Positions 2,185 through 30,295 of a DNA stretch of 64,000 nucleotides are shown one piece after another. Below the pieces are notes generated by a model. The model saw only the letters and a program-made list of their open reading frames with translations, did not search any database and had not been told where the DNA came from. A program made the position numbers and the translations under genes. Positions within the stretch are counted from its first letter, which is position 1. Every line of letters begins with the position of its first letter. The stretch is from positions 49,486 to 113,485 of the forward strand of contig CAYGGK010000001.1 in the NCBI GenBank assembly GCA_964349555.1, in the 5' to 3' direction. The DNA is from an uncultured Candidatus Saccharibacteria bacterium (lineage in GTDB: Bacteria > Patescibacteriota > Minisyncoccia > Phycocordibacterales > Phycocordibacteraceae).

Positions 2185-2811
2185 ATGAGTATCGTCATTG
2201 TCGGGCTCGGGAATCCAGGGAAAGAATATGAAAAGACGCGGCACAACGCTGGAAGAAGCGCTGTGGAGCTGGTGGCGAAGCAAGAAAGCTTTGATGAATT
2301 TGTTTTTAACAAAACGGCGAACGCGCGTGTAAGCAAGGGCGCTATCGCAGGTGAAAATACGACACTCGTCTTGCCGGAAACATTTATGAATGCCTCCGGC
2401 AAAGCCGTCAGTGCGTTTATTCCCGCCGGAGGCGGGTCCGCCTCCGGCGGAAAAGGCAAAAAAATGTTAAAGAATCTTCTCGTCATTCACGACGACTTGG
2501 ATTTACCGCTCGGTACGGTAAAAATGGTGTTCGGTCGCGGCTCGGGAGGGCACAAGGGCGTAGAGAGCATCATGCGCGCCGTGAAGACAGAGAACTTCGC
2601 TCGCATTCGCATCGGCATCTCGGGAATGGGGAAGAAGAATCAGGCGAAGAAAGTTTCAGGAGACGAAAAAGTGCTTAAGCACGTGATAGGGAAGTGGAAG
2701 CCCGGCGAAGAAGCCGCGCTGAAAAAGACTCTGAAAAAAGTCGCAGAAACCGTCCGCCTCTTCGCCGCCTCCGGCATCGACCCTGCAACAATGTTCGCCA
2801 ACACCCGCTAG
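2185..2811 (+). CDS. pth: Peptidyl-tRNA hydrolase
   Basis: IVGLGNPGKEY...HNAG, LVIHDDLDLPLG and GGHKGV motifs. The start was trimmed to the ATG at 2185 inside the longer ORF. Carries a Gly/Lys-rich insert. Confidence 0.85.
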   Translation: MSIVIVGLGNPGKEYEKTRHNAGRSAVELVAKQESFDEFVFNKTANARVSKGAIAGENTTLVLPETFMNASGKAVSAFIPAGGGSASGGKGKKMLKNLLVIHDDLDLPLGTVKMVFGRGSGGHKGVESIMRAVKTENFARIRIGISGMGKKNQAKKVSGDEKVLKHVIGKWKPGEEAALKKTLKKVAETVRLFAASGIDPATMFANTR

Positions 2812-7624: not shown

Positions 7625-7921
7625 ATGGAGCAGTGGCACATCTTGGATCGGAACGGTAACCCAGAGAAAGAAGAGGAGTTGCCGGAGCGACCAGCAGATT
7701 CGAATCCAGCAGAAGGACAGGCGTTTCGGCCTTGGTACAAACAAGAAGAACATTTACATATCGAAAGTAATGCCATCAAGGGTATTCATGCCCATGGGAT
7801 GTTACAAACAGTTCAAGAACGCTTGCATCACTACTTAAGCAAAGAACCTCAGATCCTTGCGGAATTTGGAGGGAGCGAAGATGTCCTTCTTCCTACTGTC
7901 GATAATTTCCTCGAACAATGA
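7625..7921 (+). CDS. Hypothetical acidic protein
   Basis: ORF only; 4-nt overlap (ATGA) with the next gene. Confidence 0.25.
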   Translation: MEQWHILDRNGNPEKEEELPERPADSNPAEGQAFRPWYKQEEHLHIESNAIKGIHAHGMLQTVQERLHHYLSKEPQILAEFGGSEDVLLPTVDNFLEQ

Positions 7922-8226
7922 AAAAGGTTGTTGTGACGGTGCCGGTGGGGCATGCAGACAAAGTTCGGCAGGCGATAGGCGAGGCGGGTGGCGGGAAAGT
8001 CGGGAAGTATTCTTTCTGTAGTTTCAGTGTGCGTGGCACTGGACGATTTTTACCGGGTGATGGAGCGAAGCCCGCGATTGGCAAGGTAGGAAAAATTGAA
8101 GAAGTTGAGGAAGAGCAAATTGAGATTAATTGCGACGATGTTCTCGTCGAGGATGTCGTAGGAGCCATCCGTCGCGTACACCCCTACGAAGAGCCATCAA
8201 TCGACATCTACCTACTCGAAAACTAA
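7918..8226 (+). CDS. Stand-alone PII-like domain protein resembling the insert domain of NIF3/YqfO (COG3323-like)
   Basis: Pattern VVV.VP..H...V..A...AGGGK.GKYS.CSF...GTG.F.P..GA.P.IG..G.IEEVEE..IE...HPYEEPSIDIY, as remembered for the YqfO insert domain. Confidence 0.45.
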   Translation: MKKVVVTVPVGHADKVRQAIGEAGGGKVGKYSFCSFSVRGTGRFLPGDGAKPAIGKVGKIEEVEEEQIEINCDDVLVEDVVGAIRRVHPYEEPSIDIYLLEN

Positions 8227-8251
8227 CGCAGTAAAATATCCTTATCCACAT

Positions 8252-8275
8252 CCGGTCGGTCAGAGATAAGAATAT
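8252..8275. repeat. Repeat R1a: CCGGTCGGTCAGAGATAAGAATAT upstream of PaaX-like gene 1; embedded in a short inverted repeat (CTTATC...GATAAG)
   Basis: Seen directly. A second copy lies at 8901-8924, downstream of the same gene. Confidence 0.7.
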
Positions 8276-8294
8276 TTGTTTTACGATATGAGAG

Positions 8295-8876
8295 ATGGGT
8301 AAGCTTGAGACAGCATCGCGTAAAAGAAGAAGGAAACAGAATATACAACATGCCGTACTTGCTGCCGTTGCGGTCGTTGGGCTGCTCGCATGGGCGGCAG
8401 TTGCTCCGAACACTCTGAAACTCCTACGGTATTTGCCTAAAGAAAAGTACAATCTCGGATATCGAGCTCGCACGGCTGCTGGACGCCTCGTTACTAAAGG
8501 CCAGGCAAAATGGGTTGAAAGAGGTGGTAAAAAATATTTGCGACTAACTCCGGCCGGTCACAAAGCGCTTGCGTTTGAACAAACAAAGGTTACTCTCAAA
8601 AATCAGAAAAAGAAGTGGGATTGTCGGTGGCGAATGGTTGTTTTTGATATTCCAGAACGGCGGCGGCGCATTAGGATTCGTTTGCGCACATATATGAGCG
8701 AAGTCGGTTTCGTACGACTGCAGGATAGCGTGTGGGTATATCCCTACGATTGCGAAGATTTTATCGCACTTCTTAAGGCAGAGCTAAAGATCGGTAAGGA
8801 CGTACTTTATGCGATTGCTGACACAATTGAACACGACCGAGACATTCGTAAGTACTTCCATCTGCCGGAGCAATAG
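8295..8876 (+). CDS. PaaX-like (Cas2-fold middle domain) putative transcriptional regulator, paralog 1
   Basis: N-terminal hydrophobic wHTH-like segment. The motif WDCRWRMVVFDIPERRRRIRIRLR...GFVRLQDSVWVYPY recalls the PaaX middle domain. It shares about 45% identity, judged by eye, with the ORF at 15663-16250. Confidence 0.55.
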   Translation: MGKLETASRKRRRKQNIQHAVLAAVAVVGLLAWAAVAPNTLKLLRYLPKEKYNLGYRARTAAGRLVTKGQAKWVERGGKKYLRLTPAGHKALAFEQTKVTLKNQKKKWDCRWRMVVFDIPERRRRIRIRLRTYMSEVGFVRLQDSVWVYPYDCEDFIALLKAELKIGKDVLYAIADTIEHDRDIRKYFHLPEQ

Positions 8877-8900
8877 ACCAGTCAACATTCTTATAATAAA

Positions 8901-8924
8901 CCGGTCGGTCAGAAATAAGAATGT
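8901..8924. repeat. Repeat R1b: CCGGTCGGTCAGAAATAAGAATGT downstream of PaaX-like gene 1; flanked by the inverted repeat CATTCTTAT...ATAAGAATG
   Basis: Seen directly; 22/24 identity to R1a. Confidence 0.7.
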
Positions 8925-8981: not shown

Positions 8982-9007
8982 TGCGCGGCCCGTCCACGGG
9001 CCGCGCA
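8982..9007 (+). terminator. GC-rich hairpin (11-bp stem TGCGCGGCCCG / CGGGCCGCGCA, 4-nt loop) followed by a T-rich run; candidate intrinsic terminator or regulatory hairpin
   Basis: Perfect inverted repeat seen directly. It lies between PaaX-like gene 1 and the methyltransferase start. Confidence 0.4.
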
Positions 9008-9022
9008 TGTTATTTTATAGGC

Positions 9023-9559
9023 ATGACGGCCCATTTCAGTTCTCCGAGAGAGAATGTGCTACACCTTGGCTTGCGCGAGGGAATGAAGGTTGGAGACCTT
9101 GGCGCTGGTAGCGGCCATTACGCGCGCGCGGCCGCCGCCATCGTGGGGCACGGCGGTAAGGTCTACGCAATTGATGTGCAAGAGGACGTCCTTAAGCACC
9201 TCAAACTCAACACGCACGACCACCACAAAAGCATCATTGACGTGCTCTGGGGCAACATTGAGAAGCCTGGCGGGACGCATCTGCGCGACGCATCGTTAGA
9301 TGCCGTTATCCTCGCTAACACACTCTTCCAGGTTGAGAATCGTGACGGGTTACTTGCAGAGATCAAACGCGTTCTGAAGCAGGGGGGAAAGTTTATGCTT
9401 ATCGATTGGGCGGGTAGCTATGGGGGTATGGGCCCCACACCCGACCAAATCGTGCCTGAACACGAAGCCGAAGCGCTTTTCATCAACGGCGGTTTCCACA
9501 AGGTGAAGTCATTTCGCGCCGGGCCGCACCATTACGGCATTATCTTTACCGCACCATGA
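9023..9559 (+). CDS. Class I SAM-dependent methyltransferase (Methyltransf_11/25-like)
   Basis: VGDLGAGSG (motif I), VYAIDV (motif II), LDAVILANTL, GGKFMLIDW. The start was trimmed to the ATG at 9023. Confidence 0.65.
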   Translation: MTAHFSSPRENVLHLGLREGMKVGDLGAGSGHYARAAAAIVGHGGKVYAIDVQEDVLKHLKLNTHDHHKSIIDVLWGNIEKPGGTHLRDASLDAVILANTLFQVENRDGLLAEIKRVLKQGGKFMLIDWAGSYGGMGPTPDQIVPEHEAEALFINGGFHKVKSFRAGPHHYGIIFTAP

Positions 9560-10856: not shown

Positions 10857-11348
10857 ATGCGCACCTCTTTCGTTGCAGCAATCATGTTCTTCGCGCTCGC
10901 GTCTTCGGCACTCGCACTTGGTCCATCAGGCGGCGGGACCGTCACCCCTCCCCCTCCAACTGTAGATCCAGTGCTCCAAGCAGAACAAGAGGCGGCGGCT
11001 AATTCGGGGTCGATCAATAATATCCCTACGCAAATCTCGCCAAGTGTAAATAATGTTCCGGGTGGCTCCAACGTCACCCTCGTCAATCCGTTAAGAGGCG
11101 GCGGGGACTTGATGACCTTCCTTCAAAACATCCTTGATTTCGTCATTGAAATCGGCACGGTCGTCGTCGTCCTCATGCTGGTGTATGTCGGCTACCTCTT
11201 TGTTGCCGCACAAGGGAACGAGACAAAAATAACCGAAGCGCGCAACGCGCTCCTCTGGACCGTCGTCGGCGCACTCATCCTCCTCGGCTCCAAAGCGATA
11301 GCCATCGGTATAGAGGCGACGGCGCAGGCGCTCTCGGTTGGCGGCTGA
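10857..11348 (+). CDS. Pilin-like two-TM peptide P1 (VirB2/TrbC-like topology), signal peptide
   Basis: Signal peptide, Pro/Gly-rich linker, then hydrophobic helix, charged loop (QGNETKITEARNALLW) and a second hydrophobic helix. Most divergent member of the array. Confidence 0.45.
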   Translation: MRTSFVAAIMFFALASSALALGPSGGGTVTPPPPTVDPVLQAEQEAAANSGSINNIPTQISPSVNNVPGGSNVTLVNPLRGGGDLMTFLQNILDFVIEIGTVVVVLMLVYVGYLFVAAQGNETKITEARNALLWTVVGALILLGSKAIAIGIEATAQALSVGG

Positions 11349-11625
11349 TATGGCCACGTCGTTTAAAGAATTTATCGGGGACAGCACGACTGGCGTCGTA
11401 GGCGCCATCAACACCGTCATTGTACCCGTCATATTCGCGCTCGCGCTCGCCGCCTTCGTCTGGGGCATCTACAAATACTTCATCTTGGGAGCAGCGAACG
11501 AGTCAGAAAAAGCAGAGGGCCGCACGTTCGCCCTGTGGGGCCTCATCGGCATAGTGCTCCTCTTCTCCGTCTGGGGATTTGTTAATTTGTTGCTATCCAC
11601 GCTCGGCCTCACGGCCACCGGCTGA
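11338..11625 (+). CDS. Pilin-like two-TM peptide P2
   Basis: Core VIVPVIFALALAAFVWGIYKYFILGAANESEKAEGRTFALWGLIGIVLLFSVWGFVNLL. No signal peptide. Confidence 0.55.
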   Translation: MAADMATSFKEFIGDSTTGVVGAINTVIVPVIFALALAAFVWGIYKYFILGAANESEKAEGRTFALWGLIGIVLLFSVWGFVNLLLSTLGLTATG

Positions 11626-11644
11626 TGTGTCATACTTACGCTAT

Positions 11645-12100
11645 ATGAAATCCATCACGCGTCTCGCTCTTATTCTCACTGCTTCTTTAGTGTGCGTCGC
11701 GCCGTCATTTGCGCTCGCGCAGACTCAAATTTATTCAGACTCATCCGGCAACTTCCAATACAACAGCCCTAGCTTCTCAATCGGTTTCGGGAGCGGTGGC
11801 ATGTTTATGTGCGGGGCGAGCAACATCTGCCGTGTTGCGTCCACCATCATCTACGTCATCAACAACGTGCTCGTGCCGCTCCTCTTCGCCGCCGCCTTCA
11901 TCACGTTTCTCTACGGCGTCGTCTCCAAGTACATCTTCTCTTATGGGGACGCCGAGAAGGTGAAGGAGGGTCACAAACTCATTCTCTGGGGTATTCTCGC
12001 CTTTGTCATTATGATATCGCTTTGGGGCCTCGTGAATGTCGTCGCGAACACCTTCGGCCTCTACGGCATCTCCGCGCCGCCCCTGCCGAGCTCATTCTGA
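11645..12100 (+). CDS. Pilin-like two-TM peptide P3, signal peptide
   Basis: Signal peptide (MKSITRLALILTASLVCVAPSFALA). Core INNVLVPLLFAAAFITFLYG...GDAEKVKEGHKLILWGILAFVIMISLWGLVNVV. Confidence 0.55.
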   Translation: MKSITRLALILTASLVCVAPSFALAQTQIYSDSSGNFQYNSPSFSIGFGSGGMFMCGASNICRVASTIIYVINNVLVPLLFAAAFITFLYGVVSKYIFSYGDAEKVKEGHKLILWGILAFVIMISLWGLVNVVANTFGLYGISAPPLPSSF

Positions 12101-12112
12101 TAGAACAGAAAC

Positions 12113-12610
12113 ATGAAAAAATACCTCACAGCCCTCGCCCTTGCTTTCTTTGTCTTTGCGCCTTTGGCGCTGGCACAGCCCGCAGAAACTACTGAGATAC
12201 CATTCACTGGCACTACTGACCTGCAACCGTTCGGAGAAACTACTACCGACAATGACAACGTACAGTTCGACGACCAAATCTATAACGGCCTAACACAAAC
12301 ACAGGGAGGTACCGGAGGTGGCATCAACATAGGAGTCATCAAGCCGTATGCGGACAGCATTATCGGCATCATCAACTTCATCTTCCTCCCGGTTATCATG
12401 GCGGTTGCCTTCATCGTCTTCATCTGGGGCATCTACAAATACTTTATCTTGGGTGCGTCGAACGAATCAGAAAAAGCAGAGGGTCGTAAGTTTGCGATGT
12501 GGGGCATCATCGGCTTCGCCATCATCATCTCTATCTGGGGCCTTGTGAATACCTTTACGGGCGCCCTAAATCTGCAGGGTGGGCGCGCCCCGAGGATTCC
12601 AACCCTCTAA
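12113..12610 (+). CDS. Pilin-like two-TM peptide P4, signal peptide
   Basis: Signal peptide, then the core FLPVIMAVAFIVFIWGIYKYFILGASNESEKAEGRKFAMWGIIGFAIIISIWGLVNTF, which is nearly identical to P2. Confidence 0.55.
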   Translation: MKKYLTALALAFFVFAPLALAQPAETTEIPFTGTTDLQPFGETTTDNDNVQFDDQIYNGLTQTQGGTGGGINIGVIKPYADSIIGIINFIFLPVIMAVAFIVFIWGIYKYFILGASNESEKAEGRKFAMWGIIGFAIIISIWGLVNTFTGALNLQGGRAPRIPTL

Positions 12611-12691
12611 ATAGGGGGCTATCCACACGCCGAGATAAGGTATATTGACCAAGCCGGTAAAGACGTTACTATTAAGAGCAGTTAATCACTT

Positions 12692-13075
12692 ATGTATACT
12701 ATGAAAAAAGCACTTGCCCTCGCTACCGGAACGCTCGTCGCGCTCGCCCTGCCGCTTGTCTCGTCGGCCCAAACGGTGCGGAACCTTTCGGATGCCGGTT
12801 CGCTCATTATCAACGTTATCAATAATGTGCTAGTCCCCGTGCTCTTCGCTGTTGCTTTCATCGTCTTCCTTTGGGGAGCGTTCAATACTTTCATTCTAGG
12901 TCAGGGCTCCGAAGATGTGAAAGAGAAAGGCAAGAGTCTCATGTTGTACGGCCTTATCGGCTTCTTCGTCATGGTCTCCATCTGGGGCTTGGTGAACATC
13001 CTCACTGGCACCGTGAGCTTCGGTAATACGACGGGGCCAAGCAATACGCCTTCATCAGGCGTTCAGGTCAGATAA
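12692..13075 (+). CDS. Pilin-like two-TM peptide P5, signal peptide
   Basis: Signal peptide. Core INNVLVPVLFAVAFIVFLWG...GQGSEDVKEKGKSLMLYGLIGFFVMVSIWGLVNIL. Confidence 0.55.
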   Translation: MYTMKKALALATGTLVALALPLVSSAQTVRNLSDAGSLIINVINNVLVPVLFAVAFIVFLWGAFNTFILGQGSEDVKEKGKSLMLYGLIGFFVMVSIWGLVNILTGTVSFGNTTGPSNTPSSGVQVR

Positions 13076-13348
13076 ATGCCGGTTCTCCACGAATTCCTCG
13101 GGAAGGTTGTCGTAGAAATCGTCAACCCGCTCATCCTCCTTTTGGCGGCTGTCGCCTTTGTCCTCTTTCTCTGGGGAGTGTTTGAATTCGTGGCTCACGC
13201 TGGAGACGAGACGAAACGCACAGAGGGCAAGAGAGCCATTATGTGGGGCCTTGTCGGCCTCGTCGTTATCTTCGGTGTGTACGGCATTCTCAATATTTTG
13301 ACGGATACGTTTAATCTGGAGCGGGTTAAAAAGATAAGCGGCTTATAA
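13076..13348 (+). CDS. Pilin-like two-TM peptide P6
   Basis: Core LILLLAAVAFVLFLWG...HAGDETKRTEGKRAIMWGLVGLVVIFGVYGILNIL. No signal peptide. Confidence 0.5.
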   Translation: MPVLHEFLGKVVVEIVNPLILLLAAVAFVLFLWGVFEFVAHAGDETKRTEGKRAIMWGLVGLVVIFGVYGILNILTDTFNLERVKKISGL

Positions 13349-15617: not shown

Positions 15618-15669
15618 TGGGAAATCAACAATTCTTGCTATAGCAGAAGTTGTTGATAGTTGTTATTTA
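15618..15669. repeat. Repeat R2a: ~52-bp element containing the imperfect palindrome ATCAACAATTCTTGCTATAGCAGAAGTTGTTGAT
   Basis: Seen directly. Copies at 16268-16301 (same orientation) and 30199-30250 (reverse complement, 1 mismatch in the core). Confidence 0.8.
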
Positions 15670-16250
15670 AAAGGGAGGCCGAAATGTTTGCGTATCCACA
15701 CATCATTCTCTATTTCTTCCACAACCGCATAGAGCACGTCCTTGCCGATATGCAGGTCTGCTTTAAGGAGGGCAACAAATTCTTCACAGTTGTACGGATA
15801 AATCCACGCGCTGTCCTGTACACGGAGAAAACCGACCTCTTGTACGTGATGCCGTAATATTTCACGAGTCTTTTTCCGTTTTTCTGGAACGTCAAACAGT
15901 ATCAAGCGGTAACGCCGATCCCACTTGCGCGGTTTGTGCGCGAGAAGAGAGAGCCTCTGTTGTTCCATGGCTAAAGACTCTTCACCACGTCTTGTAAGGC
16001 GCACACAACGTTTCCCGTCATGTTCGACGAACTCAATCTCGCCCTTCATTTTCAATCGCGCGAGAATGCCTCTGGTCTGATACTTAAGTTTGGCAAGAAC
16101 GCCGCTCTTCCCAAGCATCTGAAACATGTTAGGTGCAATGGCCGCAACAGCGATAACTCCGGCTACACCTATCGTCATAAGCATCGCGCTGCGTACATTG
16201 CGGCGCCTACTCTTCTGCGCGGCACTCGCTTCAAGAGATTTCATGTACAC
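15663..16250 (-). CDS. PaaX-like (Cas2-fold middle domain) putative transcriptional regulator, paralog 2
   Basis: WDRRYRLILFDVPEKRKKTREILRHHVQEVGFLRVQDSAWIYPYNCEEFVALLKADLHIGKDVLYA aligns residue-for-residue with the ORF at 8295-8876. Confidence 0.55.
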   Translation of the reverse strand: MYMKSLEASAAQKSRRRNVRSAMLMTIGVAGVIAVAAIAPNMFQMLGKSGVLAKLKYQTRGILARLKMKGEIEFVEHDGKRCVRLTRRGEESLAMEQQRLSLLAHKPRKWDRRYRLILFDVPEKRKKTREILRHHVQEVGFLRVQDSAWIYPYNCEEFVALLKADLHIGKDVLYAVVEEIENDVWIRKHFGLPFK

Positions 16251-16267
16251 ACCCTACACCACCCATA

Positions 16268-16301
16268 ATCAACAATTCTTGCTATAGCAGAAGTTGTTGA
16301 T
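16268..16301. repeat. Repeat R2b (core palindrome copy) upstream of PaaX-like gene 2
   Basis: Identical 34-bp core to R2a. Confidence 0.8.
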
Positions 16302-16346
16302 ATCCGATTGGGCTACTCGCCTGGATTATTCGCCGCGTTATGTTTG

Positions 16347-21678: not shown

Positions 21679-24390
21679 ATGCCTCCATTCAATAATTTCA
21701 CCACAAAAGCAAAAGAGGCCGTGCGTCGAGCGCATGAGCTCGCGATAGAACGCGGACAAAACCACGTCTCGCCGCTCCACTTGCTCGCCGCTCTCGTTCT
21801 CCAAGAGGAATCGCTCGTCTTCTCGATGCTCGACCGTATGGAAATTGACACCGTTGCACTTGCAGACTCGGTACTTGAACACTTGGAGACGCCCGAGACC
21901 GCCACCGTGCTCTCACCCTCATACCAGATATATCTCACACCGGATCTTGCGCAGGCACTTGAAGCATCGGGGAAAATAGCCGCGCGCATGAACGACACCT
22001 TCGTCGGCACCGAGCATCTTTTCCTAGCGGTCATTGAGCACCCCGGACAAGCCGCTGATATTTTCACGCGTTTTTCCATAGGTAGAGACGCGGCGCTTGC
22101 CATCCTCAAGGAACTCAAGAGCTCAAAGGACGGACAAACGGCGGAGCCGAAACGTTTCCGCGCGCTCGCCAAGTACGCCCGCAACCTCACCAAGCTCGCT
22201 TCAGAGAACAAACTGGACCCGGTTATCGGTCGCGATGTTGAGATTAACAGAGTCATTCAAATCCTCGCGCGCCGAACCAAGAATAATCCAATACTTATCG
22301 GCGAAGCGGGAGTAGGGAAGACCGCCATTGCCGAAGGTCTTGCCGCGCGCATGGCCACCGGCGATGTCCCGCAATCACTAAAAGGAAAAGAGCTTCTCTC
22401 GCTCGATCTTGGGCTTATGGTCGCTGGTACGAAGTATCGCGGCGAATTTGAAGAACGGATGAAAAGTGTGATGAAGGAAGTTGAGCGATCAGAAGGGAAG
22501 GCGATCCTCTTCATTGACGAACTCCATACACTTGTCGGTGCCGGAGGCGCCGAGGGTTCTCTAGACGCCTCAAATATGCTGAAGCCCGCGCTTTCGCGCG
22601 GAGATATCCGTGTCATCGGCGCAACCACACTCAAGGAATATCAAAAATATATAGAAAAAGACGCCGCGCTTACCCGCCGCTTCCAGTCAGTGTTCGTACA
22701 GGAGCCGTCGATAGAGGACGGTATCGCCATTTTGCGCGGACTTCGCGACAAGTATGAGCTCTTTCACGGCGTGCGTATCACCGATGGCGCTATCGTTGCG
22801 GCCGTTGAGCTCTCGGCGCGCTACATTAGCGATCGATTTTTACCGGACAAGGCTATTGACCTCATTGATGAAGCGGCCTCCGGACTGCGCATCGCGCTTG
22901 AGAACAAGCCGCCGCTTCTTGATGAAACCGACCGAAAAATTCGCCGTCTGGAAATTGAGCGGCAGGCGCTCCAGAAGGACGCAGAGCTCGCGTCCGCCGG
23001 AGGCGCTACCGCTTCGGGTGGAAAGGAAATCAAAGAGCGTATCAAAGAGATAGATACTGAAGTCGCCGACTTGAAGGAGACAACGAGCGAACTTGAGCTC
23101 AAGTGGAAGAATGAAAAAGAAGTACTTGAAGGTATTCGTGCGGATAAGACCGAGCTTGAGAAGTTGAAAATACAAGCGGACAACGCCGAGATGACGGCCG
23201 ACCTCGGGACGGTCGCAGAGATACGGTATGGCAAGATGCCCCACTTACAAAAAGATTTAGAAACCAAGCTCAAGCGTTTAAAGACGCTCCAAAAGTCGCG
23301 GCGCGTGCTGAACGAAGAGGTGGCTGAGCAGGACATCGCGTCGGTTGTGAGCCGTTGGACCGGCATTCCTGTTGCGCGGATGCTTGAGGAAGAGGCGTCA
23401 AAGCTCTCGCGTATGGAGGAGTGGCTCAGAAACAGCATTATCGGACAGGACAGCGCGGTGAAAAAAGTCACCGATGCCGTGAAGCGCTCCAGAGTGGGCA
23501 TCTCTGACCCGAACCGTCCGATTGGCTCGTTCCTCTTCCTCGGTCCCACTGGCGTGGGGAAGACTGAACTCTCCAAGAAACTTGCGGAGTTTATGTTTAA
23601 TGATGTGGATGCGCTTGTCCGCGTTGATATGAGCGAATTTATGGAGAAACACTCGGTTGCGAAGCTTATTGGCGCGCCGCCGGGCTACGTTGGATATGAA
23701 GAAGCGGGTACCTTGACCGAGCGCATACGACATCGTCCGTACGCGGTAGTGCTCTTTGACGAGATAGAAAAGGCGCACCCGGAAGTATTCAATATTCTCC
23801 TCCAGGTGCTCGACTCCGGCCACCTCACCGACGGCAAGGGTCGCAAGATTAATTTCAAGAACACTATTATCGTGCTCACTTCAAATATCGGCGGTGAGTT
23901 CATAGACCGCCTCGCGCACATCGGTTTTGGGAAGGCTGGTGCGACCGACGCGACGCGTTACGAGGAGACGAAGGAGAAGGTGATGGGAGCGCTTAAAGAA
24001 CACTTCCGACCCGAGTTTCTTAATCGCCTTGATGACATTATTATCTTTGATGTGCTCGCGAAGGAGGCACTCGCGCGCATTGTTGATACGCAGATTGAAG
24101 AGGTGATGAAACGGCTCACGCAGAAGCGCATCGCGCTTGTTATAGAACCGCCCGTGCGAACATGGCTCGCAGAGAAGGGATATAATCCACAGTACGGCGC
24201 CCGCCCCCTACGTCGCACTATCCAGGACAAGATACTGACGCCGCTTGCCTCAATGATGGTTGAACAGGGCCTCATGGAAGGCGGCACCGTCACGGTCTCC
24301 ATTAAAAATGACGAGCCGCATTTTGACGTGAAGAAGAAGTTGACTAGAACGAAACCCAAAAGCGCGAAAAAAGAGACCAGCATTGCCTAA
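21679..24390 (+). CDS. clpB: ATP-dependent chaperone ClpB
   Basis: N-domain, two AAA+ modules ([30 protein letters not shown]), long M-domain coiled coil, sensor-2. Confidence 0.95.
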
Positions 24391-25743: not shown

Positions 25744-26634
25744 TTAAGACACTGTGTGTCCTAGCTTACGGAGCCAAGCCTTCTGGCGGCGGGCGTACTG
25801 CCAGAGTTTTGCTGAGAGGGTGGGGAAGAGAGATTCTTCGGCGCGCTCCTTTCGTAGAAATTCGCCGATGATTTTGTACTCAAGACCAAGCTCGTTCAGA
25901 CGCTCATCGCCCACCTCTTCGCGTACGCGGCGCACCTCGTCAATAAGCCCCCGCTCAAGCGCGCTTTTGAGACGTGTGTCTATCCGCGCGCGCAGTTCCT
26001 CGCGCGAGGGGTCAATTACAATCCATTCAATCAGGTATCTCAAAGATATGCCTATAGGTACGTCTTTGGGACACCTCAACGGAACAGTGCCGAGGAACTC
26101 GATGATTTCGAGCGCGCGGATGAGGCGTCGGCGGTTCTGCGGGTCAAGCTCGCTTGCGCGCCGCGGGTCTACTTCTCTAATTCGCGCGAATAGTTCCTCA
26201 GTGGGGAGTGCCTCAAGCTCCTCGCGTAGTGCAGGATTAGCATCAACTCCCGTCGGGAGGCCGCGGAGCAAGGCGTCAAAATAAAAGTGCGTCCCACCGA
26301 CAAGGATCGGGAGTTTCCCGCGAGACGATATTTCCTCAATCAGGCGCGTCGCATCGGCCACGAAATCTCCGGCGGAGTACTTCTCGCTCGCGCCACGGAT
26401 ATCAATAAGGTGATGCGGAACCCCCTGCATTTCTTCAAGCGTTATTTTCTCAGTGCCGATATCAAGCCCGCGATATACCTGTCGTGAGTCAACCGAGATC
26501 ACCTCGCTCATGAAGGGTTTCGTAAATCCTTCATTTGATGAAGGATTTACGAAACCCTTCAAAGCAATTTCAACGGCCCGAGAGGATTTACCCGAGGCGG
26601 TGGGGCCGGCTATGCAGAGGATTTGTGTTGCCAT
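25744..26634 (-). CDS. miaA: tRNA dimethylallyltransferase
   Basis: P-loop ILCIAGPTASGKSS and ISVDSRQVYRGLDIGTEK, HHLIDI. Carries a 16-aa in-frame insertion right after the P-loop. Confidence 0.85.
   Translation of the reverse strand: MATQILCIAGPTASGKSSRAVEIALKGFVNPSSNEGFTKPFMSEVISVDSRQVYRGLDIGTEKITLEEMQGVPHHLIDIRGASEKYSAGDFVADATRLIEEISSRGKLPILVGGTHFYFDALLRGLPTGVDANPALREELEALPTEELFARIREVDPRRASELDPQNRRRLIRALEIIEFLGTVPLRCPKDVPIGISLRYLIEWIVIDPSREELRARIDTRLKSALERGLIDEVRRVREEVGDERLNELGLEYKIIGEFLRKERAEESLFPTLSAKLWQYARRQKAWLRKLGHTVS
26511..26561. repeat. Perfect palindrome (23-bp arms TGAAGGGTTTCGTAAATCCTTCA / TGAAGGATTTACGAAACCCTTCA, 5-nt spacer) inserted in-frame within miaA
   Basis: Seen directly; it encodes the extra GFVNPSSNEGFTKPF segment. 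Confidence 0.85.
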
Positions 26635-26676
26635 TAAGCGCGATGGTATCATGATAGTGAGGTAACCAATACACAT

Positions 26677-27336
26677 ATGAAAGAGACCAAAAGTAATTAT
26701 TGCGGGCACTGCGGAGAGTTCCACGACACGGTTCGTGACTACTCCTCAATGGTGAAGGTTGGAGAACCCGTACCAGACTTTGAATTTGAAGTGTTCCATA
26801 AAGACACGATTACAACGATGAGCTTGTTGCAACTGCGCGGGAAATGGGCGATCATCGTTTTCTATCCGGCCGACTTCACCTTCATCTGCCCGACTGAACT
26901 TGAAGAATTGGCGGAGCTGTATCCGAAGTTCCAAGGGCTGAACGCAGAAATCATCTCTGTCTCGACCGACACCGTCTTCACGCACAAGGCGTGGCATGAT
27001 GCGTCGAGCGGTATTAAGGCGATCAAGTATCCGATGGCGGCCGACCCTTCGGGTAAACTCGCTCGCGCGTTCGGCGTTCTCATTGAAGGAGAGGAGACGG
27101 CACTTGCGCCGGACGAAGGTCTTGCTCTCCGCGGGACATTCATCATTGACCCTGCGGGCATTCTGCGCGGAGCGGAGATTAACGACAACTCAATCGGCCG
27201 CAAAGGCTCGGAGACTTTGCGTAAGCTCCAGGCGGCGCAGTACGTGGAAACGCACAAGGGCCAAGTCTGTCCGGCTTCGTGGGAGCCAGGTTCCGACACA
27301 CTCGAACCGGGCCTGGACTTAGTGGGGAAGTTATAA
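26677..27336 (+). CDS. Typical 2-Cys peroxiredoxin (AhpC/TSA family) with N-terminal CxxC-containing extension
   Basis: FYPADFTFICPTELE peroxidatic Cys motif and resolving Cys near the C-terminus (VCP). An alternative start at 26749 is possible. Confidence 0.85.
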   Translation: MKETKSNYCGHCGEFHDTVRDYSSMVKVGEPVPDFEFEVFHKDTITTMSLLQLRGKWAIIVFYPADFTFICPTELEELAELYPKFQGLNAEIISVSTDTVFTHKAWHDASSGIKAIKYPMAADPSGKLARAFGVLIEGEETALAPDEGLALRGTFIIDPAGILRGAEINDNSIGRKGSETLRKLQAAQYVETHKGQVCPASWEPGSDTLEPGLDLVGKL

Positions 27337-27525: not shown

Positions 27526-28500
27526 ATGAACGAAGAGGCGCGTTACATACCGACAAAATACGATTCGGTTTTTTGGATTGACGTTGATCGTATACAGCCG
27601 AACCCCTACCAACCGAGGAAGGAGTTCAGCGAGGCGGGACTCGCGTCCCTTGCTGAGAGCATACGCCAATACGGCGTACTCCAGCCGCTCGTCGTGAGTC
27701 GCGTTGACGTCGAGAAGCCGGATGGCGGGCTCGGGAGCGTATACGAGCTTATCGCCGGTGAGCGGCGCCTGCGTGCGAGCAAGCTCGCCGGTCTCAAACA
27801 AGTACCGGTTGTTATCCGACAGGGCGAGAGCAATCTTACGAAACTCGAGCTCGCCATTATTGAAAATCTCCAGAGAGAAGATTTAAACGCGATTGATCGG
27901 GCGAAGGCTCTGCAAAAGCTTATTGACGAGTTCGGCATATCTCACGTTGAGTGTGCGGCAAAGATAGGGAAGAGCCGCGAGTACGTTTCAAACAGCATTC
28001 GATTACTCGCACTGCCGGAGCACATGCAGAATGCCATTGTTGCCAAGGAGCTCACCGAGGGCCACGCGCGCGCGGTTATGGCCCTGAATGATCGTCCGGA
28101 AGAGCGCGAAACTCTTTTTAAGGAAATTGTTTTAAAGCGGATGTCGGTACGTGCCGCTGAACGCATCGCGCGCTCTATCGCGCAGGAGCGCGTACGCAAG
28201 TATCATAGAAAATCGCCTGAAATGGCAGAGCTTGAAAAATCGCTTACCGAGACCCTCGGCACGCGCGTCATTATCGAGACGAACGCCGAAGGCGGCCGTC
28301 TCCTCATAGATTTTTTCTCTCCCGAGGACCTCTCAACCATCGCGGCCGCTCTCGTGGCACACGAGTTCCAGAACGTGAACACGCCCGTCTTCAAGAACAC
28401 CACACAACTCTCACCCGACTCCGACCCCGCGCCTTACCAGACCGACGTCGAAAAGCCGGACGACGACGATCTATACTCGGTAAAAAACTTCACCGTTTAG
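27526..28500 (+). CDS. parB: Chromosome partitioning protein ParB/Spo0J (no adjacent parA)
   Basis: IQPNPYQPRKEF, GVLQPLVV, LIAGERRLRASKLAG, HTH; the start was trimmed to 27526. Confidence 0.85.
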   Translation: MNEEARYIPTKYDSVFWIDVDRIQPNPYQPRKEFSEAGLASLAESIRQYGVLQPLVVSRVDVEKPDGGLGSVYELIAGERRLRASKLAGLKQVPVVIRQGESNLTKLELAIIENLQREDLNAIDRAKALQKLIDEFGISHVECAAKIGKSREYVSNSIRLLALPEHMQNAIVAKELTEGHARAVMALNDRPEERETLFKEIVLKRMSVRAAERIARSIAQERVRKYHRKSPEMAELEKSLTETLGTRVIIETNAEGGRLLIDFFSPEDLSTIAAALVAHEFQNVNTPVFKNTTQLSPDSDPAPYQTDVEKPDDDDLYSVKNFTV

Positions 28501-30110
28501 TTTTTTTTGAACATTGAGTGCCCTCTCCACTTCCCTCCATGGTGTTTGTGGCGACGGGACGGCTTAGCCGGCTCGGTGAGCCCGAGCGCCGCGCGGATAT
28601 GTCGGCGAGCGAGCGAAGTCTTGGCGATATCAAGCCACTTCGGCGACGGGTGTGCAGAGTCGCGCCGTATTATCTCAACAACTTCTCCGTTGCCGAGGAC
28701 GGTGTCGAATGGGACCAATTTTCCGTTCACTTTCGCACCTTGAATGTGGTTCCCCAAGTCGCTATGTATCGCGTACGCGAAATCAATCGGCGTTGACGCC
28801 ACCGGCAGGTCTATAACGTCCCCGTCGGGAGTGAAGACGAACACGCGATGTGAGAAGAAATCTTCTTTAAGTCCTTCTATGAATTCTTCAGAGCCGGCCA
28901 TGTCAGTATGCGCCTCGACGAGGTCGGCAAGCCATGGTGGGGCCTTTGCTGCGGTCCTTGCCAACCCGTCTTTCTTTGAAAACTTCATGAGTGATGGGAT
29001 AAGTGAGGAGATCCACGTAAGAGAAAGCGAGGAGAATTTGTTTTTTTGGGCACCTTTATCTAATTTCTCCACCTCTTTGCCGAGTTGTTTATAGGACATG
29101 TGTGACGCTATGCCGAACCGCGCACGACGATGCATTTCCTCGTCGCGAATCTGAATTTCCACTATGCCGGCGTCAGAGGTTACGACCGTCGTGTGAAGCG
29201 ATTGGTATCCGTTCGGTTTTGGAAAGGCGATGTAATCCTTGAACTCTCCCGGGAGTGGCTTATATAGAGCATGCACGACGCCAAGCGTCGCGTAACAATC
29301 TTCAATGGTCGGGACAATAATTCGCAAGGCGGCGATGTCGTGAATGAGGCTTATGTCGTCACGCTTTCTCTTTAACTTTTGATGCAAGCTCCAAATTCCT
29401 TTTATACGAATATCGGTATGGAAATTCTTGAGCCCCTTTCTTGCCAACTCCCGTTTCAGTTCTTTCTGCACCTTTAAGAGACCGCTTTCGGTCTCTTTCG
29501 TTTTTAGAGTACGCATTTCAGCAGTATGGCTGGCGGCGTCAGGGTCGACGAAAGGGAAGGAGAGGTCCTCAATCTCACGTTTCATTCTTCCCATCCCAAG
29601 CCGGTCGGCGATGGGGGCGTAAATTTCCAATGTTTCAAGCGCGATACGTCGGCGCTTATGTTCCGGCACGTACTCAAGCGTTTCCATGTTGTGCTTGCGA
29701 TCTGCGAGCTTCACGATGAGCACGCGAATATCACTCGCGGTCGCCACCAACAGCCGGCGCAGAGACTCCGCGTGGCGCTCAGCACCGCGGTATTTATGCG
29801 TACCAAGCTTGGTTACTCCCTCAACAATAAAAAGCAACTCTTTCCCGAATTCTTTTTCCATTTCTTCGCGCGTGATGCGGCCGTCCTCAACAGCGTCATG
29901 CAGAAGGCCCGCGGCGACAGTCGTCGCGTCCATGCCGTACTCGGCGAGCGTTTTCGCGGTGGCTGAAGGATGAACGAAATAGGGTTCTCCAGAATAGCGC
30001 TTTTGTCCCTCATGCGCCTTCCTGGAGAATTCATACGCTTTCTCCACGAGAGCGACGTCTTCGGGCGTTGCACCCTCCATCTTGGCGATAATCTCCTTGA
30101 CGGTGGTCAT
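28497..30110 (-). CDS. rel: RelA/SpoT-family (p)ppGpp synthetase/hydrolase, ACT-less (HD + synthetase + TGS)
   Basis: HD motifs (HPSATAKTLAEYGMDATTVAAGLLHDAVED), synthetase region (DIAALRIIV), TGS (VFTPDGDVIDLPVASTPIDFAYAIHSDLG); ends after the TGS domain. Confidence 0.85.
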   Translation of the reverse strand: MTTVKEIIAKMEGATPEDVALVEKAYEFSRKAHEGQKRYSGEPYFVHPSATAKTLAEYGMDATTVAAGLLHDAVEDGRITREEMEKEFGKELLFIVEGVTKLGTHKYRGAERHAESLRRLLVATASDIRVLIVKLADRKHNMETLEYVPEHKRRRIALETLEIYAPIADRLGMGRMKREIEDLSFPFVDPDAASHTAEMRTLKTKETESGLLKVQKELKRELARKGLKNFHTDIRIKGIWSLHQKLKRKRDDISLIHDIAALRIIVPTIEDCYATLGVVHALYKPLPGEFKDYIAFPKPNGYQSLHTTVVTSDAGIVEIQIRDEEMHRRARFGIASHMSYKQLGKEVEKLDKGAQKNKFSSLSLTWISSLIPSLMKFSKKDGLARTAAKAPPWLADLVEAHTDMAGSEEFIEGLKEDFFSHRVFVFTPDGDVIDLPVASTPIDFAYAIHSDLGNHIQGAKVNGKLVPFDTVLGNGEVVEIIRRDSAHPSPKWLDIAKTSLARRHIRAALGLTEPAKPSRRHKHHGGKWRGHSMFKKN

Positions 30111-30198
30111 AGGTAACCACTATACACCCAACAGTTTATTTTTGCTTTTTAATGAAAATCTCAGCGTAACTATGAGAATCGAATTGGCCTCCCTCTCA

Positions 30199-30250
30199 AA
30201 TAAACACTATCAACAACTTTTGCTATAGCAAGAATTGTTGATTTCCCAGG
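30199..30250. repeat. Repeat R2c: reverse-complement copy of the R2 palindromic element in the topA-rel intergenic region
   Basis: The core ATCAACAACTTTTGCTATAGCAAGAATTGTTGAT is the reverse complement of the R2a core with 1 mismatch; the flanking ~10 bp on each side also match R2a. Confidence 0.8.
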
Positions 30251-30295
30251 AGATAGATGGAGATGAGTGACCAACACAGACGCGGAGGCAGTAAG

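What the first reader, a model, noticed from the sequence alone, without database searches (positions are those of the whole stretch)
8252..8924. Distinct repeat pair flanking PaaX-like paralog 1, each embedded in its own inverted repeat
The core CCGGTCGGTCAGA(G/A)ATAAGAAT(A/G)T occurs about 20 bp upstream of the start and about 25 bp downstream of the stop of gene 8295-8876. Short inverted repeats surround the core at both sites: CTTATC...GATAAG at 8252-8275 and CATTCTTAT...ATAAGAATG at 8901-8924. Paralog 2 has an unrelated flanking repeat. So each paralog appears to have its own cognate site, consistent with divergent regulator and operator specificities.
Basis: seen in the sequence. Interest (0 to 1): 0.5.

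Follow-up and report, generated by a model that had tools for sequence, protein, structure and literature searches.

The report
Palindromic binding sites bracketing a mini-PaaX gene
The two repeats are real and are two copies of a 40-bp palindromic site that most likely binds the small PaaX/Cas2-like DNA-binding protein encoded between them; the same gene-bracketing layout, with a different site sequence in every lineage and paralog, recurs across Patescibacteria.

Summary
Each copy is a 40-bp palindrome in three parts (8236-8275 and 8885-8924): 10-11-bp arms, about 5-bp non-symmetric spacers and the centre CCGGTCGG.

The flanked gene (8295-8876) encodes a 193-aa protein with a PaaX-type winged helix and a Cas2-like domain. 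It lacks the PaaX effector domain.

In 52 of about 76 related loci from other Patescibacteria, the orthologue or paralogue is bracketed in the same way. Arm sequences differ between lineages and track the recognition helix. Paralogs within one genome always differ in arms or centre.

All 26 paralog-1 orthologues have a -10 box 5-8 nt before the ATG, which implies a leaderless mRNA. The upstream palindrome therefore covers about -59 to -20 of the gene's own promoter.

Symmetry statistics favour a double-stranded DNA site for a dimer over an RNA hairpin. My best reading is cognate operators with autorepression, as in E. coli PaaX (TGATTC-N27-GAATCA).

The role of the downstream copy is unresolved. 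The same palindromes also occur elsewhere, at about one per 60-70 kb. Some sit in-frame inside tsaD, uvrC and holB with presence/absence polymorphism. This leaves open a REPIN/RAYT-like reading.

The parts
8236..8275 (.). Upstream copy of the 40-bp three-part palindrome: left arm 8236-8246, spacer 8247-8251, centre CCGGTCGG 8252-8259, spacer 8260-8264, right arm 8265-8275. It spans about -59 to -20 relative to the ATG/TSS.
   Evidence: Sequence; pattern search; palindrome scans; orthologue alignment.
8282..8287 (+). Predicted -10 box TACGAT, 7 nt before the ATG, which implies a leaderless mRNA.
   Evidence: A TAnnnT hexamer lies 5-8 nt before the ATG in 26 of 26 paralog-1 orthologues and in 59 of 76 loci overall, against 8% at control offsets. 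The TSS is inferred; there are no transcript data.
8295..8876 (+). Paralog 1: a 193-aa mini-PaaX with a basic/hydrophobic N-terminal helix, a PaaX-type winged helix (about residues 38-85), a linker helix and a Cas2-like beta-alpha-beta-beta-alpha-beta domain (112-175). It has no PaaX_C domain.
   Evidence: Pfam PaaX_M 6e-20 and Cas2 5e-4. TIGR02277 scores 40.6 bits against a cut-off of 264.6; TIGR01573 cas2 scores 26.3 against 24.5. AF2 model, pLDDT 71. Best PDB fold match is E. coli PaaX 8a39, followed by Cas2 proteins. 2304 homologues, with orthologues 70-87% identical, in Patescibacteria.
8885..8924 (.). Downstream copy of the palindrome: left arm 8885-8894, centre 8901-8908, right arm 8915-8924. 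It starts 8 nt after the stop codon and lies upstream of the terminator.
   Evidence: A downstream copy is present in most related loci.
8982..9017 (+). Intrinsic terminator: an 11-bp GC-rich stem at 8982-9007 followed by a T-run. It is the probable 3' end of the paralog-1 transcript, so the downstream palindrome would lie in the 3' UTR.
   Evidence: Terminator scan; RNA fold -25.7 kcal/mol, z = -4.5.
15663..16244 (-). Paralog 2, 193 aa, 46% identical to paralog 1, with the same domain layout.
   Evidence: tblastn; Pfam PaaX_M 1.3e-15; sequence.
16267..16302 (.). Paralog-2 upstream palindrome: arms ATCAACAA/TTGTTGAT, centre GCTATAGC. Its centre is 40 nt before the ATG.
   Evidence: D3.
15623..15658 (.). 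Paralog-2 downstream palindrome, 100% identical to the upstream copy and 5 nt after the stop.
   Evidence: D3.
30208..30243 (.). Third copy of the paralog-2 palindrome, with no gene next to it, between topA and a relA/spoT-like gene. Its flanks retain the last codons (GLP(F/L)K*) and about 40 nt of the downstream flank of a paralog-2-like gene, so it is a relic of a duplicated gene end.

Best explanation
The two repeats are two copies of a 40-bp three-part palindromic DNA site. The protein encoded between them most likely recognises this site as a dimer.

That protein is a truncated PaaX-type regulator. I infer that its two winged-helix domains read the 10-11-bp outer arms, and that the Cas2-like dimerisation module, with its arginine-rich helix, sits over the conserved centre CCGGTCGG.

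The upstream copy covers the -35 and spacer region of the gene's own leaderless promoter (-10 TACGAT at 8282-8287, TSS at about the ATG, 8295). An occupied site would therefore exclude RNA polymerase and repress the gene, as E. coli PaaX does at its Px promoter.

The downstream copy is a second cognate site, lying just after the stop codon and before the terminator. I think it most likely cooperates with the upstream site, either by a loop of about 650 bp or as a roadblock or insulator.

Arms and centre have diverged together with the recognition helix in each lineage. Paralog 1 (ATATTCTTATC...CCGGTCGG) and paralog 2 (ATCAACAA...GCTATAGC) are therefore insulated from each other.

What is shown: the anatomy of the site, its presence across the family, co-variation with the protein, the promoter overlap and the PaaX-like fold.

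What is inferred: binding, repression and the role of the downstream copy.
For: 1. The site is real and non-random.

2. It is present across the family. Of about 76 loci from GTDB species representatives, 52 carry both an upstream and a downstream copy that are at least 26/44 identical. Strong palindromes are rare elsewhere in the same loci: 21 of 2231 control windows reach 14/20.

3. Symmetry profile over 94 elements:
- centre positions k=2-4 are 88-97% symmetric
- spacer positions k=5-9 are about 50% symmetric
- arm positions k=10-19 are 77-96% symmetric
- beyond k=20 symmetry falls to 33-51%

4. G.T mismatches (119) equal A.C mismatches (116). Positions that would form a hairpin loop are symmetric. 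This fits a duplex site for a dimer rather than an RNA hairpin. The RNA folds are weak, at -10 to -12 kcal/mol.

5. A -10 box lies 5-8 nt before the ATG in 26 of 26 orthologues and 59 of 76 loci, against 8% in controls. The palindrome therefore overlaps the core promoter. In another subgroup TATAAT lies inside the palindrome and the centre is 17-19 nt from the ATG.

6. Half-site identity is 0.73 within a locus and 0.33 between loci. Recognition-helix classes go with arm classes. Same-genome paralogs differ in arms or centre.

7. The protein is PaaX-like by profile and by fold. E. coli PaaX binds TGATTC-N27-GAATCA, a 39-bp span, and represses its own promoter by steric hindrance (PMC9493321).

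8. A full-length PaaX-like protein (PaaX_M + PaaX_C) in L084 has the same type of site 6 nt upstream of its own gene, and another in front of the neighbouring gene.

9. Paralog-1 orthologues are syntenic (gyrA ... gene ... methyltransferase, solute-binding protein). The gene is therefore vertically inherited and is not a mobile cassette.
Against: - There are no binding or expression data. The TSS is inferred.
- A downstream operator is not needed for autorepression, and the upstream-downstream spacing shows no helical phasing.
- Paralog 1 has no other site in 64 kb, so no regulon is visible here.
- In related genomes most exact matches to the site are not next to a PaaX-like gene. Their neighbours are functionally unrelated, and some sites lie inside coding regions.
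- The tsaD copies are insertions present in only about 15 of 120 orthologues. That looks like spread by duplication or mobility, not like operators evolving in place.
- Co-variation of arms with the protein could partly reflect shared phylogeny.
- The N-terminal hydrophobic segment (residues 19-37, pLDDT below 50) could be a membrane helix, which would be odd for a repressor.
Confidence: 0.62

Rival explanations
1. This is a REPIN/RAYT-like system. The palindromes would be short non-autonomous elements that spread within the genome. The single-copy, vertically inherited gene they bracket (wHTH + Cas2-like, possibly a nuclease) would mobilise or maintain them, each paralog with its own repeat family.
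For: - The gene is bracketed on both sides, each paralog has its own palindrome family, and the gene is single-copy and syntenic. These are the stated hallmarks of RAYTs (PMC3337134).
- About 45 of 62 metagenome loci with the paralog-1-type site show no PaaX-like gene, and their neighbours are functionally unrelated.
- In-frame copies occur in tsaD, uvrC and holB.
- In tsaD, about 100 of 120 orthologues lack the 8-13-aa palindrome-encoded insert. Four carry a different palindromic insert at the same spot.
- In uvrC the palindrome is kept in another frame and orientation, so the encoded peptides differ. Selection or turnover therefore acts on the DNA.
- The third paralog-2 copy arose by segmental duplication.
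- The Cas2 signature is retained (FDIPE ... RLQDSVW, with D118 invariant), and the protein passes the TIGR01573 cut-off.
Against: - Copy number is low, about one non-flank site per 60-70 kb, whereas REPs number in the hundreds.
- There is no HUH/Y1 domain, and no transposition activity is known for Cas2-like folds.
- The upstream copy is built into the promoter at a fixed distance.
- Orthologous intragenic sites keep arms and centre while their spacers diverge. This suggests site-by-site selection for binding.
- Full-length PaaX-like regulators use the same type of site in ordinary promoter positions.
- Some short contigs may simply lack the gene because they are truncated (for example L119).
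Confidence: 0.18
2. The repeats act as RNA hairpins in the 5' and 3' untranslated regions of the mRNA, controlling stability, termination or binding by the Cas2-like domain acting as an RNA-binding or RNase module.
For: - Both copies can fold. The downstream copy folds at -12.1 kcal/mol (z = -4.3) and the paralog-2 copies at -11.5 kcal/mol.
- The downstream copy lies inside the predicted transcript, before the terminator.
- Some Cas2 proteins are reported to be RNases (general knowledge).
Against: - The -10 box lies downstream of the upstream copy and the mRNA is predicted to be leaderless, so the upstream copy would not be transcribed.
- There is no excess of G.T over A.C mismatches (119 against 116).
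- Positions k=2-4, which would be the apical loop, are the most symmetric.
- Positions k=5-9 pair only about 50% of the time.
- The upstream copy folds no better than 10 of 200 shuffles.
- A separate strong terminator follows.
Confidence: 0.05
3. The repeats are a degenerate CRISPR-like unit: two repeats around a 'spacer' that contains a Cas2 homologue. Alternatively, they are attachment or target-site duplications of an inserted cassette.
For: - The repeat length (36-40 bp) and partial palindromy resemble CRISPR repeats.
- Many orthologues are annotated as Cas2, and the protein passes the cas2 model cut-off.
- L068 has three tandem upstream copies 100-120 bp apart.
Against: - The window contains no tandem array.
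- No cas gene is among the neighbours. These are gyrA, a CutA1-like gene, a methyltransferase and a solute-binding protein.
- The 'spacer' is the conserved gene itself.
- The locus is syntenic across genomes 60-87% identical, with no empty site.
- The two copies differ in their spacers but share arms and centre, unlike target-site duplications.
Confidence: 0.02

Closest known systems
E. coli / Pseudomonas PaaX repressor and its operators (TGATTC-N27-GAATCA; autorepression of Px)
   Same: - It has a winged helix plus a central Cas2-like domain (Pfam PaaX_M), and E. coli PaaX (8a39) is the best PDB fold match.
- The operator is a split palindrome spanning about 39-40 bp.
- One site overlaps the regulator's own promoter.
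   Different: - The protein is 193 aa and has no PaaX_C effector domain.
- It scores far below the PaaX equivalog cut-off (40.6 against 264.6 bits).
- No paa genes lie nearby.
- The arms are 10-11 bp and there is an additional conserved 6-8-bp central palindrome.
- A second copy sits directly after the stop codon, so the gene is bracketed.
- The Cas2 sequence signature (FDIPE/QDSVW) is retained, whereas the Rv0674 sequence aligned lacks it.
- The family is confined to Patescibacteria, usually as two paralogs per genome.
REPIN-RAYT systems (REP-associated tyrosine transposases flanked by their cognate REP palindromes)
   Same: - A short (about 0.5-0.6 kb), single-copy, vertically inherited gene is flanked on both sides by its cognate palindromes.
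- Several distinct gene/palindrome pairs occur per genome.
- The palindromes are also dispersed elsewhere.
   Different: - The protein is not an HUH/Y1 transposase.
- There are tens of copies per genome at most, not hundreds.
- Copies occur in-frame inside genes.
- The upstream copy is part of the promoter.
Cas2 (CRISPR adaptation protein)
   Same: The C-terminal half has the Cas2 ferredoxin-like fold and the YDI...Q-SVF-type motif. NCBI's cas2 model is passed narrowly, so many orthologues are annotated as Cas2.
   Different: It is fused to a DNA-binding winged helix. There is no cas1, no array and no other cas genes. The 'Cas2' annotation of this family is almost certainly a misnomer as far as function goes.
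Rickettsia palindromic elements (RPEs), which insert in-frame into protein-coding genes (general knowledge, not checked here)
   Same: In related genomes, palindromic DNA of this family sits in-frame in linker regions of housekeeping genes (tsaD, uvrC, holB), with presence/absence polymorphism.
   Different: The elements are about 40 bp rather than 100-150 bp, and they are tied to a cognate DNA-binding protein gene.

Membership tests
PaaX transcriptional repressor family | Central Cas2-like domain (Pfam PF20803, PaaX_M) | tested here: met
   E = 6e-20, 71.6 bits against a cut-off of 24, residues 106-181. Paralog 2 gives 1.3e-15.
PaaX transcriptional repressor family | N-terminal PaaX-type winged helix-turn-helix | tested here: met
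   TIGR02277 aligns residues 58-160 to PaaX positions 37-137 (E = 2e-10). The AF2 model has helices at 38-46 and 54-67 and a beta-hairpin wing at 71-84. Foldseek's best hit is 8a39, E. coli PaaX, over 195 columns with E = 2.7e-4. The Pfam PaaX N-domain model itself did not hit.
PaaX transcriptional repressor family | C-terminal PaaX_C effector (phenylacetyl-CoA) domain; full-length equivalog score | tested here: not met
   There is no PF08223 hit and the protein ends at residue 193. TIGR02277 scores 40.6 bits against a cut-off of 264.55. A 273-aa relative in L084 does have PaaX_C.
PaaX transcriptional repressor family | Operator made of two inverted half-sites spanning about 39 bp and overlapping a regulated promoter | tested here: met
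   The site is a 40-bp palindrome with outer arms 18-20 bp apart. It overlaps the -35/spacer region of the gene's own predicted promoter. For comparison, the E. coli operator is TGATTC-N27-GAATCA (PMC9493321). Binding itself was not tested.
PaaX transcriptional repressor family | Control of phenylacetate catabolic (paa) genes | tested here: not met
   The neighbours are gyrA, a CutA1-like gene, a SAM methyltransferase and a solute-binding protein. No paa gene was seen near any of the loci inspected.
Cas2 / CRISPR adaptation module | Cas2 fold and sequence signature | tested here: met
   TIGR01573 scores 26.3 bits against a cut-off of 24.5. Several PADLOC Cas2 models hit, down to 1.8e-6. Fold hits include 3exc, 5zyf and 2ivy.
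Cas2 / CRISPR adaptation module | Adjacent cas1 and a CRISPR array | tested here: not met
   There is no tandem repeat or array in the 64-kb window. Neighbouring genes are not cas genes. The rest of the genome was not examined.
REPIN-RAYT | Gene flanked by its cognate palindromes; one repeat family per paralog; single-copy and vertically inherited | tested here: met
   flanks and paralog-specific families; synteny.
REPIN-RAYT | HUH/Y1 (IS200-like) transposase | tested here: not met
   Only PaaX_M and Cas2 domains were found, plus a weak PadR hit. The fold is PaaX/Cas2.
REPIN-RAYT | High-copy, extragenic dispersal | tested here: not met
   There is about one non-flank copy per 60-70 kb. Several copies are intragenic. 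No complete genome was available, so copy number is an estimate.
Intrinsic terminator | GC-rich stem followed by a T-run | tested here: not met
   The palindromes have AT-rich arms, large internal loops and no T-run. The scan finds only 8982-9007.

The most novel reading that the evidence does not exclude
The wHTH-Cas2-like proteins and their 40-bp palindromes form a REPIN/RAYT-like partnership in Patescibacteria. A vertically inherited, single-copy Cas2-fold protein, bracketed by its own palindromes, would bind and also propagate or maintain them. These palindromes can land in-frame inside housekeeping genes such as tsaD, uvrC and holB. That would be a domesticated repeat-propagating system built on a Cas2 fold rather than on an HUH transposase. 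It could bear on how Cas2 was recruited to act on palindromic repeats.
Probability: 0.15. Interest if true: 0.85.

Novelty: new variant of a known kind. Interest (0 to 1): 0.55.

Why it matters
- Almost nothing is known about transcriptional regulation in Patescibacteria (CPR). This family is among the best-conserved small proteins of the Paceibacteria (orthologues 70-87% identical, usually two paralogs per genome), yet it is annotated as 'Cas2', 'PaaX' or hypothetical.
- The analysis gives each member a predicted 40-bp recognition site, a predicted leaderless promoter, and a natural set of co-varying protein/site pairs. That set could be used to work out a recognition code, and it is directly testable by EMSA or reporter assays in E. 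coli.
- It argues that the 'Cas2' annotation of these genes is wrong as far as function goes.
- The gene-bracketing arrangement and the in-frame intragenic copies are unusual for a repressor. They raise the question of whether binding sites, or the protein itself, drive the spread of the palindromes.

Tried and rejected
- **Rfam and tRNA scan:** a window scan at gathering threshold found only tRNAs and nothing at the repeats.
- **RNA hairpin or terminator:** rejected on mismatch symmetry, symmetric 'loop' positions, weak folding, the predicted leaderless TSS and a separate real terminator.
- **Mobile gene cassette or att sites:** rejected because paralog-1 orthologues are syntenic between gyrA and the methyltransferase.
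- **CRISPR-like array:** no arrays and no cas neighbours.
- **Other paralog-1 sites in the window:** none. The best other match is 18/28.
- **Helical phasing of the upstream-downstream distance, as a test of looping:** no signal, so uninformative.
- **GC-skew profile, to ask whether the gyrA-adjacent locus is near the origin:** no clear switch.
- **PDB sequence search:** only a marginal hit to Rv0674. The fold search was needed.
- **Literature:** no paper contains both PaaX and Patescibacteria, or both PaaX and Cas2.
- **Functional theme among genes next to dispersed sites:** none found.
- **holB site as an insertion:** not supported. The window's orthologue has the same length but no palindrome. 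The tsaD site clearly is an insertion.
Full report

Yes. The 24-nt core matches exactly twice, at 8252-8275 and 8901-8924. No further match appears even with three mismatches allowed, and none is expected by chance.

Read in full, each copy is a 40-bp unit with dyad symmetry:
- 8236-8275: ATATcCTTATC-CACAT-CCGGTCGG-TCAGA-GATAAGaATAT
- 8885-8924: ACATTCTTAT-AATAAA-CCGGTCGG-TCAGAA-ATAAGAATGT

A scan of the whole window for a symmetric centre plus at least 9 of 10 symmetric arm positions finds only these two sites; 20 shuffles gave 0.

The first copy ends 19 nt before the ATG at 8295. The second begins 8 nt after the stop codon at 8874-8876.

**2. The gene and its paralog.**

The ORF 8295-8876 encodes 193 aa. 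Evidence on what it is:
- Pfam finds the PaaX central Cas2-like domain (6e-20) and a weaker Cas2 hit.
- NCBIfam aligns residues 58-160 to PaaX, but at 40.6 bits against a cut-off of 264.6. The cas2 model is passed narrowly, at 26.3 against 24.5. This explains why many orthologues are annotated as 'Cas2'.
- An AlphaFold2 model (pLDDT 71) shows a long N-terminal helix, a winged helix (helices 38-46 and 54-67, wing 71-84), a linker helix and a beta-alpha-beta-beta-alpha-beta domain.
- The best PDB fold match is E. coli PaaX (8a39), followed by Rv0674 and then many Cas2 proteins.
- There is no PaaX_C effector domain.

Paralog 2 (15663-16244, - strand, 46% identity) is flanked by a perfect 36-nt repeat at 16267-16302 and 15623-15658. 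This repeat is also a palindrome (ATCAACAA...GCTATAGC...TTGTTGAT) and is unrelated in sequence to the paralog-1 site.

**3. The arrangement occurs across the family.**

The protein has 2304 homologues, all in Patescibacteria, and orthologues are 70-87% identical. I fetched 80 loci from GTDB species representatives.

- In most of them the gene is flanked upstream and downstream by similar near-palindromes of 36-44 bp, whose sequence differs from genome to genome.
- With a centre-anchored search, 52 loci have both copies at 26/44 identity or better.
- Control 140-nt windows elsewhere in the same loci rarely reach comparable symmetry: 21 of 2231 reach 14/20.
- Over 94 elements the symmetry profile has three parts. 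Centre positions 2-4 are 88-97% symmetric, spacer positions 5-9 about 50%, and arm positions 10-19 77-96%. Beyond position 20 symmetry falls to 33-51%.
- Centres fall into a few classes: CGGTCG, CGGCCG, GCTATAGC, CCTATAGG and CGATCG.

Paralog-1 orthologues sit in a conserved context: gyrA, variable small genes, the gene itself, variable genes, a methyltransferase and a solute-binding protein. The gene is therefore vertically inherited and is not a mobile cassette.

**4. DNA site or RNA hairpin?**

Several results point to a duplex DNA site read by a symmetric dimer:
- G.T mismatches (119) equal A.C mismatches (116), so there is no sign of wobble tolerance on the sense strand.
- The positions that would form the apical loop are the most symmetric ones.
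- The spacer positions do not pair.
- RNA folds are weak, at -10 to -12 kcal/mol. The upstream copy folds no better than 10 of 200 shuffles.
- A separate strong terminator lies at 8982-9007, at -25.7 kcal/mol.

**5. Relation to the promoter.**

Aligning the upstream regions of 26 paralog-1 orthologues shows a conserved TAnnnT box (TACGAT, TAGAAT, TATGAT and others) 5-8 nt before the ATG in all 26. Across all loci it is present in 59 of 76, against 8% at control offsets. This implies leaderless mRNAs.

In the window the box is TACGAT at 8282-8287. The upstream palindrome therefore spans about -59 to -20, covering the -35 and spacer region.

In another subgroup the palindrome centre is 17-19 nt before the ATG and TATAAT lies inside the right spacer, so the site covers the whole core promoter. 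In both layouts a bound protein would occlude RNA polymerase.

**6. Cognate specificity.**

- The four half-sites of a locus are 73% identical to one another, against 33% between loci whose proteins are under 60% identical.
- Arm classes go with recognition-helix classes. For example:
  - NL.YRAK(T/S)AAGRL goes with ATATTCTTATC and centre CGGTCG.
  - RLKYQTKG(V/I)L.RLK goes with TATC(C/A)ACAA and centre GCTATAGC.
  - NPKYLFG.AFEKL goes with AATTA(C/T)GTTAA.
- Paralogs from the same genome always differ in arms or centre (L022/L033, L007/L043, L021/L050, L052/L059, L072/L073). L052 and L059 have similar arms but different centres.
- This pattern is what co-evolving regulator/operator pairs would produce, although shared ancestry contributes to it.

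For comparison, E. coli PaaX binds TGATTC-N27-GAATCA, a 39-bp span, and represses its own Px promoter by steric hindrance (PMC9493321). A full-length PaaX-like protein (PaaX_M + PaaX_C) in L084 has the same type of site 6 nt upstream of its gene, and another in front of the neighbouring metallo-beta-lactamase-fold gene.

**7. What does not fit a simple autoregulator.**

(a) The downstream copy is as well conserved as the upstream one, and is often a more perfect palindrome. Yet it lies after the stop codon and before the terminator. Looping or a roadblock role is plausible but untested, and the upstream-downstream distances (598-745 bp) show no helical phasing.

(b) I scanned metagenome contigs for TYCTTAT-N7-CGGTCG-N7-ATAAGRA and obtained 62 loci. 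Only about 16 of these are flanks of a PaaX-like gene. The rest fall into three groups:
- Intergenic sites, often just after a terminator and before a promoter (for example L117 and L084).
- Sites next to a paralog-2-type palindrome (L081, L089, L098, L113).
- Sites inside coding regions of tsaD, a uvrC-like gene and a holB-like gene.

The neighbouring genes share no functional theme.

(c) The intragenic copies deserve a closer look.
- In tsaD, about 100 of 120 orthologues have a 29-residue segment at this position, and about 15 carry an extra 8-13 residues encoded by the palindrome (ILMxSRPxxDKNI).
- Four tsaD orthologues carry a different insert, which in L143 is encoded by another palindrome, GGTATGATATATCATACC. 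The palindromes are therefore gained and lost.
- In uvrC, two orthologues keep the palindrome at the same position but in a different frame and orientation, so the encoded peptides differ. Whatever maintains the sequence acts on the DNA.
- In holB, two orthologues keep arms and centre while their spacers differ. The window's orthologue (63286-63966) lacks the palindrome.

(d) The third paralog-2-type copy in the window (30208-30243) carries the last codons and about 40 nt of the downstream flank of a paralog-2-like gene. It is a relic of a segmental duplication.

(e) The density of non-flank sites is low, at about one per 60-70 kb. This is closer to the size of a regulon than to REP elements.

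**8. Verdict.**

The most likely explanation (about 0.6) is a pair of cognate binding sites for the encoded mini-PaaX. The upstream site mediates autorepression at a leaderless promoter, and the downstream site is an auxiliary site.

The parallels with REPIN/RAYT systems (PMC3337134) keep a repeat-propagation reading alive at about 0.15-0.2. Those parallels are:
- the gene is bracketed by its own palindromes;
- each paralog has its own palindrome family;
- the gene is single-copy and vertically inherited;
- copies are dispersed elsewhere and are gained and lost.

Low copy number, the absence of an HUH domain and the integration of the upstream copy into the promoter count against that reading. 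RNA-hairpin, CRISPR-like and attachment-site readings are disfavoured.

I found no publication describing this family or its sites. I class it as a new variant of a known kind: a PaaX-type repressor/operator, truncated, bracketing its own gene, with a three-part site.

Noticed in passing
window 30208-30243 (flanks 30168-30290): A third copy of the paralog-2 palindrome lies between the stop of topA (30296-32770, -) and the start of a relA/spoT-like gene (28497-30110, -). Its flanks keep the last codons (GLP(F/L)K*) and about 40 nt of the downstream flank of a paralog-2-like gene. It looks like the relic of a lost third paralog or of a segmental duplication.
   Followed up: partly
L090, L091, L111, L121, L137, L140 (tsaD); L101, L118 (uvrC-like); L086, L095, L100, L110, L125 (holB-like): Paralog-1-type palindromes sit in-frame inside housekeeping genes of related genomes. 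The tsaD copy is an 8-13-codon insertion present in about 15 of 120 orthologues. The uvrC copies are in different frames and orientations in two orthologues.
   Followed up: partly
L143 3001-4284 (tsaD of P0210): A different perfect 18-bp palindrome, GGTATGATATATCATACC, encodes an insert (GMIYHTS) at the same tsaD position. This loop appears to be a hot spot for palindromic insertions.
   Followed up: no
window about 26033-26076: A three-part palindrome with a CCTATAGG centre (TCTCAAAGA...TCTTTGGGA arms) lies inside ORF 25744-26724 (-). No cognate paralog is present in the window. It may be a site for a third family member, or it may be chance.
   Followed up: no
window 8892-8897 and the downstream copies of L001, L003, L004, L007, L016, L029: Downstream copies of the paralog-1 type often carry TATAAT or TATAAA in the left spacer, where upstream copies have TATCAACA or TATCCACA. 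This could be a promoter reading away from the gene. It remains unexplained.
   Followed up: no
window 8982-9025: The terminator hairpin 8982-9007 is followed by TATTTT and then, 7 nt later, the ATG (9023) of the methyltransferase gene. That gene may therefore also be leaderless, with its -10 box inside the terminator's T-run. The same layout is seen in L001 and L011.
   Followed up: no
L068 2700-3000: Three tandem upstream copies of the palindrome lie 100-120 bp apart. Two of them are followed by an ATG; the short ORF after the first resembles the gene's N-terminus. These look like partial duplications of the promoter and start region.
   Followed up: partly
L084 7370-9200: A full-length PaaX-like gene (273 aa, with PaaX_C) and the upstream metallo-beta-lactamase-fold gene each have a paralog-1-type palindrome in front of them. 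After the regulator's stop codon lies a palindrome with different arms and centre GCGGCCGC.
   Followed up: partly
L082 8744-9448: An IS200-like (HUH motif HFHLL) transposase ORF ends 28 nt before a paralog-1-type palindrome. L127 has a DDE transposase near another. The identification is by eye only.
   Followed up: no
window 2423-2453, 22994-23024, 32121-32151: There are three copies of a GC-rich palindrome, CCGCCGGAGGCGG.TCCGCCTCCGGCGGAAA. They are probably shared terminator hairpins.
   Followed up: no
window 10857-13348: Six tandem small genes encode paralogous membrane proteins that share a conserved C-terminal hydrophobic segment (repeat families D1 and D2). They resemble pilin or VirB2-like arrays seen in CPR genomes.
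   Followed up: no
L022 3669-3968 compared with window 7918-8226: The CutA1-like small gene lies downstream of the PaaX-like gene in L022 but upstream of it in the window. The interval between gyrA and the methyltransferase is a variable hot spot holding different small genes in different genomes.
   Followed up: no
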